Of a DNA stretch of 64,000 nucleotides, positions 13,775 through 64,000 are shown one piece after another. Every line of letters begins with the position of its first letter. The first letter of the stretch is position 1. Source of the DNA: Octopus vulgaris (taxonomy: Eukaryota); contig OX597816.1 of the NCBI GenBank assembly GCA_951406725.2, forward strand, positions 82,708,001-82,772,000, given 5' to 3'. The notes beneath the pieces are model-generated. The model was not told the origin of the DNA, did no database searches, and was given only the letters and a program-made list of their open reading frames with translations. The position numbers were made by a program, and so were the translations under genes.

Positions 13775-14190
13775 GGCGCAGGAGTGGCCGTGTGGTAAGT
13801 AGCTTGCTTACTAACCACATGATTCCGGGTTCAGTCCCACTGTGTGGCACCTTGGGCAAGTGTCTTCTACTATAGCCTCGGGCCGACCAAAGCCTTGTGA
13901 GTGGATTTGGTAGACGGAAACTGAAAGAAGCCTGTCGTATATATGTATATATATATATATATATATATGTGTGCGTGTATGTTTGTGTGTCTGTGTTTGT
14001 CGCCCTAGGATTGCTTGACAACCGATGCTGGTATGTTTATGTCCCCGTCACTTAGCAGTTCGGTAAAAGAGACTGATAGAATAAGTACTGGGCTTACAAA
14101 GAATAAGTCCCGGGGTCGAGTTGCTCGACTAAAGGCGGTGCTCCAGCATGGCCGCAGTCAAATGACTGAAACAAGTAAAAGAGTAAAGAG
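13775..14190 (+). mobile_element. SINE family A, young full-length reference copy
   Basis: A-box-like TGGCCGTGTGG (13785-13795), B-box-like GGTTCAGTCCC (13828-13838), central (TA)/(TG) tract, agtaaaagagtaaagag tail; many CpGs intact. Confidence 0.92.
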
Positions 14191-58190: not shown

Positions 58191-58925
58191 ATTGCAGCAT
58201 GGAAGGAGTTTGTAAGCCATTTAAGAAACATACAAAAGCCGTTCGATTCACTTCAACATTTAAGTTTAATTTATCAAAATATTTTCATTGCTTTAAGACC
58301 ACGACCTGTTCACTGACAAAAATCCATGCAGTGAACAAGTCGGGGTTTTAAAGCGACGAAAATATTTTGACAAATTAAACGTAAATGTTGAAGTGAATCG
58401 AATGGCTTTTGTGTGTTTTTTAAATGGCTTACAAACACCTTCCAGTCTCTTTTCTCTTTTACTCTTTTACTTGTTTCAGTCATTTGACTGCGGCCATGCT
58501 GGAGCACCGCCTTTGGTCGAGCAAATCAACCCTGGGACTTATTCTTTGGAAGCCCAGTACTTATTCTATCGGTCTATTTTGCCGAACCGCTATGTGACGG
58601 GGACGTAAACACACCAGCATCGGTTGTCAAGCAATGCTAGGGGCACAAACACAGACACACAAACACACACACATACACATATATATATATACATATATAC
58701 GACAGGCTTCTTTCAGTTTCCGTCTACCAAATCCACTCACAAGGCATTGGTCGGCCCGGGGCTATAGCAGACGACACTTGCCCAAGATGCCACGCAGTGG
58801 GACTGAACCCGGAACCATGTGGTTGGTTAGCAAGCTACTTACCACACAGCCACTCCTGCAACTGTTTTCGTTTCAGCACACAATCTCAGATCAAATCACT
58901 TGCTATGCAAGTACACCTCCGTAAT
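58191..58925 (-). mobile_element. Penelope-like foldback element (family G) with GUGAACA hammerhead motif, interrupted by SINE A
   Basis: Arms about 58192-58315 / 58329-58444; the unique extension resumes at 58860-58925; reverse orientation of 62575-62898; flanked by TA repeats. Confidence 0.8.
58447..58859 (-). mobile_element. SINE family A, young copy
   Basis: Near-identical to the reverse complement of 13775-14190. Confidence 0.92.
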
Positions 58926-60699: not shown

Positions 60700-62080
60700 G
60701 TAAATTCAAAGTTTAATTATAAAAACAAATGATAACTTACATTGAGATTCTCGCAAATTGAAGGGAAACCAAGCTCAAATGCTGCAAGATATTGGGGGTA
60801 ATTTGACCTATCATTCTGGCTTCACTATTTACATAGCTACCATTAACTATCAAACATATTGATAGGTATTAAACTTTCTATAATTGTTCGATTAAAAGAT
60901 AGTTGGTATGAAATCAGCTTTGTCATGGCTAATAGGTTTAATTTCTGCAGACATTCTGGAAGACACTATTTCTGATTATTAATCACTAACAAAAGGTTAG
61001 ACACTAAAATTTCAATGTTGAGCTTGCTTCCTAGCTACATGGTTTCGGGTTCAGTCCCACTGCGTGGCACTTTGGGTAGGTGTCTTCTGCTATAGCCCCG
61101 AGCCGACCAAAGCTTTGTGATTGAATTCGGCAGGCGGAAGTTACTGCCGTGTGTGTACATGTGCGTGTAGGTGCTTGTGCCTCTCCGAAAGAGAGAGAGA
61201 GGGATATAGGTTAAAATAAAATTTGTTCAGCCTATCCAGTTTCAGTACATATAGAAAGAAGATTGAAAATGAACAATTCAGTCTTGAAGTGATGGGAATT
61301 ATACCTGTAATAATGGAAATTATACTGCCAATAATGCAACATTAATTGTCTGGGTGCAAAAGTTGAGAATGAGTGCTGATTATATTCTACATTAATAGTC
61401 AAAATTAAAACATTTTCACATTAAACTTCTCATTGTGAAATAATAGTCAATGATATGCACTGGACAAATTTTTTTCTTCATGAGACTTAAAGCGTGCTTA
61501 ACAGCGGATTGGTTTAGATGAAGAAATTATGTGCAATAAATATAAGCAATGGTCTTTACTTAGTCAATAAACTTCAAGTCAGTCTCAAAAATAGCATGTC
61601 TTTTTCCCTACATTTTGTGGAGTCCATATTAAAGGGAATTAATAGCATAATTATTTATTAGGATGACATACTCATCTTTGCAGCAACTCAGAACAAATGG
61701 AATCATCAATTAGAAGGAATTATTGCTAGATTGAAAGAAACCAATGCATTGATTAACCTAAATAAATGCATTAATCATTCAGCTGCTTAAGATTAATTTA
61801 ATATTCAGTGGGATCAAATCATCATAAAGTTTAAAAGATAAGATCTGACAGTTTAGTGATACTAACTCAAGAATTTGAGAAATATTTGGAAGTGATAATC
61901 TATTGCTGTCAATTTATACCAAAATATGAAAACATAGTTGAGCTACTTCTTGCAGGAAAAAAGAATGTCTTGTGATGCATGGGAAATACATTAAGAACTG
62001 GTCATTAAAAAGACAAATTTCTTACACAATATTATGTTTTTGGTAACATTCTCAACTGAGTGTTAAATGACTTTTATTAT
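60700..62080 (+). mobile_element. Decayed Ty3/Gypsy LTR-retrotransposon pol remnant (interrupted by a SINE A head at about 61015-61190)
   Basis: IVWVQK.LRMSADY; FSS*DLKRA*QRIGLDEE; AINISNGLYLVNKLQVSLKNS; ILKGINSIIIY*DDILIF (YQDD, about 61656-61667); LINLNKC. Confidence 0.75.
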
Positions 62081-62083
62081 TGA

Positions 62084-62476
62084 CTAGCAGTATCACCCGG
62101 CGTTGCTCGGGTTTGTAAGGGAAATAATTATATAAGCATTTTTAGAGATGTAAAGTATAATAGCCATCTCAATATGGCTAACCACAAAGGGGGAGGGGTG
62201 TTACTGTAGCTTTTTACGTTCTGAGATTTAATAATAAATTTTAGAGAGTTACTTCCCTTATATATGTCAAAAATGGATTAAAAATGGGAAAAATTGATGG
62301 TAAATTTTTTTAAATCGTAGACTCATCGTAGACGCGTGCTAATACCCAGACGGTCTCGATATGAATCACGACTATAAGATACCCGGTTTTGGTTAAACTG
62401 CACCGCAAAATGTGGGAGTAGTTAGGAATCTAAATCGTAGGAGACAGACACACAACCTCACTTTTATATATAAAGA
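62084..62476 (-). mobile_element. Non-autonomous Helitron
   Basis: Minus strand A|TCTTTATATATAAAAG ... hairpin CCCGAGCAACGCCGGG ... CTAG|T; inserted between A and T, no TSD. Confidence 0.88.
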
Positions 62477-62574
62477 TTTCCTCTATTTACATAATATTGA
62501 GGTCTCTTTCTTTCTTTTGTTATCTTACTGTTTTTACCAATATACATATATATATATATATAAATATATATATA

Positions 62575-62898
62575 GTTACAGAGATGTACTTGCATAGCAA
62601 GTGACTTGATCTGAGATCGTGTGCTGGAACGAAAACAGTTGCAGCGTTGAAGGTGTTTATAAGCCATTTAAGAAGCACACAAAAACCGTTAGATTCACTT
62701 CAACATTTAAATTTAATTTGTCAAAATATTTTCGTCGCTTTGAGACCGCGACCTGTTAGCACGATATTTTTGTCAGTGAACAGGTCGCGGTCTCAAAGCG
62801 AGGAAAATATTTTGGCAAATTAAATTTAAATGTTGAAGTGAATCTAACGGTTTTTGTGTGTTTCTTAAATGGCTTACAAACACCTTCCACGCTGCAAT
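62575..62898 (+). mobile_element. Penelope-like foldback element (family G)
   Basis: About 119-bp inverted arms 62639-62757 / 62779-62897 plus a one-sided extension 62575-62638; in (TA)n. Confidence 0.85.
62769..62819 (+). ncRNA. Minimal type I hammerhead ribozyme motif, G3-C8 core variant
   Basis: UUUGUCA-GUGAACA-G-GUCGC-GGUCUCAAA-GCGA(G; C in the sister arm)-GAA-AAUAUU-U-UG(G; A in the sister arm)CAAA. Confidence 0.65.
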
Positions 62899-63262
62899 AT
62901 ATATATACACACATATATATATATGTATGTATGTATGTATGTGTGTATATGTGTATGCATGTATGTGTGTGTGTGTGCGTGTCTGTGCTTGTGATTGTCC
63001 TCCACCACTGCTTGACAACGAATGTTGGTTTGTTTACATCGCTGTCACCTAGTGGTTTGACAAAGGAAACAGATAGAATAAGTACAATGCTTACAAAAAT
63101 AAAACTGGAGCTGATTCATTAAACTACAATTCTTCAAGGCATTGCCCCAGCATGGCCACAGACCAATGGCTGGAAAAAGCAGAAGAATAAAAGAATACAT
63201 TCTCTGCTTTGGTCTTATGTTCAAGGCATGAGAAAGCTTGAGTTTACATGAGAAGGCCTAAC

Positions 63263-63530
63263 AGACCTGGTAGAAACAGCAGCCAAATCTCCCTCAAATC
63301 ACACCTTACTGTCTTATGTATGTATATATATATGAGCCAATGAGGGGGACCTCTACATGGTAGCTAGACCTGGTAGAAATAGCAGCCAAATTTCCCCCAA
63401 ATCACACCTTACTGTCTTATCTATGTATATATGTATGTATGAGCCTATGAGGGAGAACCCCTACATGGCAGCTAGACATGGTAGAAATAGCAGCCAAATC
63501 TCCCTCAAATCACACCTTACTGTCTTATGT
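63263..63530 (+). repeat. Tandem triplication (about 103-108 bp period) of the 5' part of family E
   Basis: agacctggtagaaa.agcagccaaat.tccc.caaatcacaccttactgtcttat at 63263, 63366 and 63474. Confidence 0.88.
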
Positions 63531-64000
63531 ATGTATATATATATATATATATATATACAAGCCACTACGGTTATTTAATGTAAAGTCTTCCTCAAATCAC
63601 GCTCTCGCTATTTGCTCTCTTCCAAGAACATTTTCACTCACTCTTATCTCTTAGCTTCCCATACATTTTACTCATGTATCTATCAGCGTCATAGACAGAA
63701 ACAAATATTACATCGCCATCGCATTCTATTGTCTACCTGTCAACACACAGTGAATTAGTTTCAGTTTATTCGTTGCACACTGTGTGTGTGCGTTTGCGTG
63801 TGCTGTAACCCAAACTAAGAAAAGCATTTGACATATACACCAGAATGTGAGTTTTCTCTAAATTTTGCTTAATTGGGGTTGAAATTTTAAAAACCGGACC
63901 TGGCAAAACCCGATGCATTCTACTCTTAAAAATGCTAGGTAAATTGTAATTGAAGAAATCCTATATTGTAGATTTCTATAACTGACAAAGGGAGGCAGAT

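What the first reader, a model, noticed from the sequence alone, without database searches (positions are those of the whole stretch)
62575..62898. Foldback retroelement carrying a hammerhead ribozyme with a swapped catalytic-core pair (GUGAACA, G3-C8)
Seen: the four arms of the two family G copies give the consensus UUUGUCA-GUGAACA-G-GUCGC-GGUCUCAAA-GCGAC-GAA-AAUAUU-U^UGACAAA. This has a 7-bp helix I, a 5-bp helix II closed before GAAA, a palindromic helix III (AAUAUU) and a UH site. The core is GUGAACA in three arms rather than CUGAnGA. Established: positions 3 and 8 form a Watson-Crick tertiary pair in active hammerheads, so G3+C8 is an exact compensatory swap; minimal type I hammerheads with a palindromic helix III (acting as dimers) and partial inverted repeats typify Penelope-like elements. 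Inference: a non-autonomous Penelope-like/retrozyme-like family whose ribozyme would be missed by CUGAnGA pattern searches. I cannot verify whether it has been described. The right arm of this copy has a C11.1-to-G change and may be inactive.
Basis: partly seen in the sequence, partly recalled or inferred. Interest (0 to 1): 0.85.

Follow-up and report, generated by a model that had tools for sequence, protein, structure and literature searches.

The report
Swapped-core hammerhead in octopus retroelement
A hammerhead self-cutting RNA motif with two paired core letters swapped sits at the end of a jumping-gene family with thousands of copies in what is likely an octopus genome; sister families keep the usual letters, so it is likely a working natural variant, but cutting is untested and this copy is a broken passenger.

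Summary
The motif is real, but the foldback is not its own non-autonomous family. It is a short, 5'-truncated, inverted insertion of a Penelope-like retroelement (family F1: reverse transcriptase, Zn-finger linker, C-terminal GIY-YIG). The one-sided 64-bp tail is the start of that ORF. Of 8,494 genomic arms with this context, at least 7,698 have G3+C8. Two sister families carry C3-G8 at the same place, with compensatory changes in all three helices, so the swap is a true covariation. This copy is predicted dead: the left arm is cut inside the core, the right arm has C11.1>G, and the arms pair with each other. Its 644 near-clones were spread as cargo of a Helitron-like element. Engineered C3G/G8C partly restores cleavage in a lizard element (PMC11167929); eight library searches found no natural G3-C8, but Lunse 2017 was not available. 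Unchecked notes of this scan report G3-C8 cores in phages and protist Penelope elements. Cleavage is untested, and 266 arms with G at position 8 suggest it may be dispensable. New variant of a known kind.

The parts
62575..62638 (-). One-sided 'tail': with the end of the left arm it encodes the first about 30 codons of the parent ORF
   Evidence: Translation matches the in-frame ORF start of full-length copies L240 and L241; homologous to the F2 ORF start
62639..62757 (-). Left arm: pseudo-LTR 3' part, 5'-truncated inside the hammerhead core (homology ends at A6; helix II, GAAA, palindrome and UH site intact)
   Evidence: read from the sequence
62758..62768 (.). Inversion junction, specific to this insertion
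   Evidence: junctions differ among loci L031-L060; the exact junction occurs 644 times as cargo
62769..62819 (+). Minimal type I hammerhead motif with G3 (62776) and C8 (62781), extra G at 62783, C11.1>G defect at 62802, predicted cut after 62812
62820..62898 (+). Rest of the right arm (inverted copy without tail), includes the ORF start codon region
62084..64000 (-). Helitron-like composite carrier, about 1.94 kb, running about 25 bases past the window end; CTAG end at 62084-87 with hairpin 62096-62111; inner shorter unit ends near 62476
   Evidence: shared by 30 of 30 loci; ends; Helitron hallmarks are recalled
58191..58444 (.). Second, independent inverted insertion of the same family; both arms have G3-C8 but decayed helices
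58856..58924 (+). Tail of the second copy, separated from its arm by a roughly 410-bp interspersed repeat
   Evidence: the repeat recurs in the window

Best explanation
The stretch is a short inverted insertion of the 3' end (pseudo-LTR) of a protein-coding Penelope-like retroelement whose hammerhead motif natively has G3-C8 instead of C3-G8; the family motif likely still self-cleaves weakly, while this copy is predicted inactive and was likely spread as cargo of a Helitron-like element. Shown: parent ORF upstream, tail equal to the ORF start, variable inversion junctions, 11-14 bp target duplications, swap fixed in the family, C3-G8 in two sister families. Inferred by analogy with PMC11167929 and PMC4209133: the element's protein nicks AT-rich DNA and starts reverse transcription inside the first codons (giving arm ends with and without tail); early truncation plus inversion gives the foldback; in full-length tandem transcripts two hammerheads pair through the palindromic 6-mer, or fold with help of the element's protein, and cut after U17, about 55 nt upstream of the start codon.
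For: Parent: L093 has a 530-aa 5'-truncated RT plus GIY-YIG frame (PF01541) 1.1 kb upstream of the motif; 7 of 7 young F1 loci with long frames carry the G3-C8 motif about 1 kb after the frame end (L129-131, L145-148); L241 has the motif 92 nt before the in-frame start. Fixation: 287 of 8,494 arms lack G3 and 509 lack C8. Covariation: F2 (54% protein identity) and F3 have C3-G8 at the same position; 6 of 15 pairs change on both sides, 91% of cells pair against 31-52% for slid controls (10 sequences). Within F1, lineage-level changes fall in loop II (4 sites and an indel) and outside the ribozyme; inside helices only U-A>U.G (165 arms). Contigs of 4 runs (4 organism labels) show no variant of 10% or more at G3 or C8. 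Duplications: 12 of 24 insertions have non-simple 11-14 bp duplications, control mean 0.5. Engineered C3G/G8C partly restores cleavage (PMC11167929; PMC8495972).
Against: No cleavage data. 266 arms have G at position 8, nearly all with G3 in the listed places, more than the 243 with A or T there together, and 3 of 9 two-arm loci have it in both arms: mismatched templates apparently still transposed. PMC11167929 found hammerhead mutants do not affect insertion in vitro. The covariation rests on only three families, so each change is about one event, and the structure was drawn from F1. The 165-arm sample was chosen with core-containing patterns, which inflates core conservation. The 6-mer self-duplex is only -0.2 kcal/mol. 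No fully intact full-length F1 copy was seen: L240 and L241 each have a stop, L129 lacks about 70 codons. One of the four runs may be the source of the assembly.
Confidence: 0.75

Rival explanations
1. The motif descends from a hammerhead but no longer cleaves; the fold is kept for another job (protein binding, translation control upstream of the ORF, promoter overlap), and G3-C8 became fixed by drift through a mismatched intermediate.
For: G3.G8 sub-population of 266 arms; the very young sister family F2 has C instead of A at position 9, so cores in this clade may be relaxed; cleavage not needed for insertion in vitro (PMC11167929); low activity of such motifs (PMC4209133).
Against: Drift would not be expected to land on the exact Watson-Crick reversal and fix it in at least 90% of arms while keeping U4-G5-A6, GAAA, the palindrome and the UH site; the G8 arms are a 3% minority.
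Confidence: 0.2
2. A non-autonomous foldback or retrozyme-like family that amplifies as a 324-bp unit, or a MITE with long terminal inverted repeats.
For: 40 of the 40 scored candidates are 99-100% identical over 323-324 bp; many short inverted copies exist.
Against: The identical copies share about 1.9 kb of flanks; independent copies have different centres and a tail on one side only; the arm continues upstream into a coding element; no head-to-tail arrays of the short unit were seen in the 60 loci (one partial 3' duplication, L067).
Confidence: 0.04
3. Chance resemblance of a palindromic repeat to a hammerhead.
For: Rfam finds no hammerhead in F1, F2 or F3 loci.
Against: Canonical-core F3 is missed by Rfam too; position in the pseudo-LTR, extra nucleotide, G10.1-C11.1 and palindrome all match PMC4209133; compensatory changes across families.
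Confidence: 0.01

Closest known systems
Minimal type I hammerheads in pseudo-LTRs of Penelope-like elements (Cervera and de la Pena 2014, PMC4209133; parts 1-2 of 4 read)
   Same: Position in the pseudo-LTR, extra nucleotide between 9 and 10.1, G10.1-C11.1, palindromic 15.2-16.2 region, pairs of motifs on opposite strands.
   Different: Core pair is G3-C8; in the parts read that paper reports only C3-G8 and U3-A8. Its supplementary alignments were not seen.
Poseidon element of Anolis carolinensis, PAc (Frangieh et al. 2024, PMC11167929; parts 1-2 of 4 read)
   Same: Hammerhead at the pseudo-LTR/ORF junction; optional tail inside the first codons; AT-rich targets; its engineered C3G/G8C form has this family's natural core pair.
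   Different: There the swap is a laboratory mutant and the ORF starts in stem II; here the swap is natural, the start codon lies 92 nt after G3, the tail is about 62 nt and the protein has a Zn-finger linker.
Neptune/Nematis-type EN+ Penelope-like elements (as defined in Craig et al. 2021, PMC8557442; introduction and passages read)
   Same: RT then CX2-5CxxC linker then C-terminal GIY-YIG; inverted 5'-truncated copies; one-sided tail; (TA)n targets.
   Different: Clade not tested by a tree with named references; core variant not reported in the passages read.
Natural U3-A8 hammerheads (Perreault et al. 2011, PMC3088659; passages read)
   Same: Natural covariation of the 3-8 pair.
   Different: U3-A8 keeps pyrimidine-purine order; G3-C8 reverses it and needs two transversions.
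Non-LTR retrozymes (Li et al. 2026, 10.64898/2026.07.22.740005; part 1 of 5 read)
   Same: Type I hammerhead related to Penelope pseudo-LTRs.
   Different: Retrozymes are non-coding tandem repeats; these copies are truncated or inverted pieces of a coding element.

Membership tests
Minimal type I hammerhead of Penelope-like elements | Core CUGAnGA with C3-G8 | tested here: not met
   G3 and C8 in at least 7,698 of 8,494 arms; the Watson-Crick pair is kept, its orientation is reversed
Minimal type I hammerhead of Penelope-like elements | GAAA box and UH cleavage site | tested here: met
   G12 160, A13 164, A14 163, A15.1 162, U16.1 163, U17 162 of 165 arms
Minimal type I hammerhead of Penelope-like elements | Helix II closed by G10.1-C11.1, with an extra nucleotide after position 9 | tested here: met
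   met for the family (C11.1 in 148 of 165 arms); not met in this copy's right arm (G at 62802)
Minimal type I hammerhead of Penelope-like elements | Helix I and palindromic helix III with covariation | tested here: met
   both-sided changes in helix I (3 pairs), II (1) and III (1); only three families
Minimal type I hammerhead of Penelope-like elements | Located in the pseudo-LTR | tested here: met
Minimal type I hammerhead of Penelope-like elements | Self-cleavage as dimer or with protein help | not testable with these tools
   needs an in vitro assay
EN+ Penelope-like element (Neptune/Nematis type) | Single ORF with RT and C-terminal GIY-YIG | tested here: met
   PF01541 at aa 420-511 of the L093 frame; RT motifs seen in the translation, but Pfam gave no RT match for this truncated frame
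EN+ Penelope-like element (Neptune/Nematis type) | CX2-5CxxC linker before the endonuclease | tested here: met
   present in F1 and F2
EN+ Penelope-like element (Neptune/Nematis type) | Inverted 5'-truncated copies, one-sided tail, variable target duplication | tested here: met
EN+ Penelope-like element (Neptune/Nematis type) | RT phylogeny within the named clade | not tested
   no named reference sequences among the hits
Non-LTR retrozyme / non-autonomous family | Non-coding tandem units, each with a hammerhead | tested here: not met
   arm joins a coding element; no tandem arrays of the short unit in 60 loci
MITE / foldback DNA transposon | Fixed unit with symmetric ends and constant centre | tested here: not met
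   variable centre and one-sided tail
Helitron (carrier only; hallmarks recalled) | TC...CTAG ends, 3' hairpin, insertion between A and T | tested here: met
   CTAG end found in 28 of 30 loci, all next to A; other end found in 24 of 30, 22 followed by T or GAT, 2 by another unit
Helitron (carrier only; hallmarks recalled) | Autonomous Rep/helicase partner | not tested
   not searched

The most novel reading that the evidence does not exclude
An animal retroelement lineage reversed the 3-8 pair in the catalytic core of a working hammerhead and then spread to more than 7,000 places; the G3.G8 arms are survivors of the mismatched intermediate, and with the C9 core of sister family F2 this shows that protein-assisted Penelope hammerheads tolerate core changes that CUGAnGA searches cannot see, so 'hammerhead-less' Penelope clades may hide swapped cores.
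Probability: 0.25. Interest if true: 0.72.

Novelty: new variant of a known kind. Interest (0 to 1): 0.5.

Why it matters
The C3-G8 pair was proven by an engineered swap; here the swap is fixed in a recently active, high-copy animal retroelement, with canonical sister families in the same genome as controls. If it cleaves, it is comparative evidence that cleavage is selected in Penelope-like elements, whose ribozyme role is open (PMC8557442, PMC11167929), and searches fixed on CUGAnGA undercount these ribozymes. The set F1 (G3-C8), F1 minor (G3.G8), F2 (C3-G8, C9) and F3 (canonical) is a ready-made natural series for one assay. The copy in the window itself is ordinary: a dead fragment hitchhiking on a DNA transposon.

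Tried and rejected
Rfam: no hammerhead among the 150 of 244 matches listed for the window, none at gathering score in L129, L132, L185, L212, none at E up to 10 on one F1 arm; uninformative, because canonical F3 is missed too. Expression and cleavage ends: no RNA holder listed; all four runs laid were contigs, which cannot show ends. G3.G8 as an older intermediate: not supported by age, 22 old-type G8 arms diverge 3.5% against 3.3% for 34 old-type C8 arms, p = 0.91; left open. C3-G8 revertants within F1: none of the 30 of 277 places fetched has the F1 arm; they are family F3. A chimera with a Poseidon-type ORF (L095, and a neighbour in L092): read as nested insertions, not followed. No F1 or F2 coding remnant in the window. 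My strict descriptor missed the F2 motif because of C9 (found by eye). The window_right row was out of register by two bases; its monomer energy was discarded. Literature: searches gave no natural G3-C8; Lunse et al. 2017 and Przybilski and Hammann 2007 are not held, and no supplements were read, so an earlier record there cannot be excluded.

Full report
Observation. The 324-bp stretch consists of 64 unique bases and two inverted arms, 91% alike. A second copy lies at 58191-58444, with its own 69-bp unique piece at 58856-58924 behind an inserted repeat. In this copy the right arm has G at 11.1 (62802) and the left arm is cut inside the core. A transcript of the whole unit folds into one long hairpin of about -200 kcal/mol, which would bury both motifs. 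The genome has 2.8 Gb in 227 contigs; a sister-family protein is 98% identical to a predicted Octopus vulgaris protein, so the host is likely an octopus.

Why this copy is abundant. All 40 scored candidates of the first search were 99-100% identical, but the 30 fetched loci also share the flanks, mostly from window 62083 to about 64026. This carrier has CTAG and a hairpin at one end and TC at the other on the minus strand, sits between A and T, and is sometimes tandem, which I recall as Helitron hallmarks. The exact inversion junction occurs 644 times. So these copies are cargo, not retrotranspositions; 29 of 30 keep the 11.1 defect.

The parent element. The second copy retrieved independent insertions (2,557 candidates, 40 scored, 30 loci fetched, two of them the same place). 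Their centres differ and the unique piece lies on one side. Of 24 insertions with both ends scorable, 12 have non-simple duplications of 11-14 bp (control mean 0.5), 11 lie in simple repeats and 1 shows none. [quoted passage not shown] Seven of seven young loci with long frames carry the G3-C8 motif about 1 kb behind the frame. L241 has the motif 92 nt before an in-frame start whose first codons are the tail. This is the arrangement described for the anole element, where the tail marks internal reverse-transcription starts (PMC11167929, parts 1-2 read), and for inverted Penelope insertions (PMC8557442, passages and introduction). No fully intact full-length F1 copy was seen; young arms diverge about 1% (95 arms).

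The swap. With positions 3 and 8 free the context occurs 8,494 times (control 1); 287 lack G3 and 509 lack C8, so at least 7,698 have both; up to 644 of these are cargo. Sister family F2 (54% protein identity, many open 1,310-1,312-aa frames) has C3-G8 at the same site, but C at position 9. A third family F3, closer to F2, has a canonical core (277 places with one pattern). On ten hand-picked sequences from the three families, 6 of 15 pairs change on both sides, among them 3-8, and 91% of cells pair against 31-52% for slid controls. With three families each change is about one event, so this shows homology and a conserved fold, not a statistic. Within F1, shared changes cluster in loop II and outside the ribozyme, with one U-A to U.G change in helix I (165 arms, chosen partly by core patterns). 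Contigs of four runs under four organism labels show variants of 10% or more in loop II and downstream, one CpG change at 11.1 in one run, and none at G3 or C8; one run may be the assembly's source.

Against a strict need for cleavage. 266 arms have G at position 8, nearly all with G3 in the listed places, more than A and T there together (243). Of 9 two-arm loci with such an arm, 3 have it in both arms and 6 in one; these arms are not older than old G3-C8 arms. Some were therefore probably copied from mismatched templates. The anole study found cleavage unnecessary for insertion in vitro, and minimal motifs cut poorly (PMC4209133, parts 1-2 read).

Mechanism. Shown: anatomy, parent ORF, tail, duplications, fixation, sister cores, carrier. 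Inferred: target-primed reverse transcription with early truncation and inversion made the foldback; in tandem transcripts of full elements the motif likely cuts after U17 as a dimer or with the element's protein, at reduced rate, as the engineered double mutant does (PMC11167929; PMC8495972, one passage). A vestigial or non-catalytic role is the main rival.

Novelty. Natural U3-A8 is published (PMC3088659, passages; PMC4209133). G3-C8 appears only as an engineered variant in what I read (also PMC3884650, passages). Eight searches found no natural case and no octopus hammerhead; Lunse et al. 2017, the likeliest place, is not held, and no supplements were read. PMC6765202 and PMC6155905 were read as passages only. 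Unchecked notes of this scan report G3-C8 cores in phages and in protist Penelope elements; none concerns this genome or sequence. They did not change my reading. Verdict: new variant of a known kind, interest 0.5.

Noticed in passing
L132:6383-6439 and L133-L136 (family F2): A very young Penelope-like family with many open 1,310-1,312-aa frames whose hammerhead has C instead of A at core position 9, identical in the 10 motifs seen.
   Followed up: partly
L149-L178; 266 places in G000: A minority of F1 arms has a mismatched G3.G8 core, in excess over other changes at position 8 and unevenly spread over contigs; origin unexplained (intermediate, source element with a dead core, or conversion from F3).
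   Followed up: partly
window 62084-64000: Young Helitron-like composite, at least 644 copies, carrying the foldback, a fragment of a common interspersed repeat (about 63002-63097) and a roughly 105-bp tandem repeat (63263-63548).
   Followed up: partly
window 61400-62080: Decayed reverse-transcriptase-like frame with a Y*DD-type motif, probably an LTR-retrotransposon remnant (motif recalled).
   Followed up: no
L092:3427-5865 and L095:7300-8400: Another Penelope-like lineage without the Neptune-type linker lies directly upstream of F1 pieces in two loci; in L095 the F1 3' UTR follows its truncated endonuclease region.
   Followed up: partly
window 58446-58858 and copies such as 13778-14187: Common SINE-like repeat inserted between arm and tail of the second copy.
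   Followed up: no
L179-L208 (family F3): Older sister family with a canonical hammerhead core, not detected by Rfam.
   Followed up: partly
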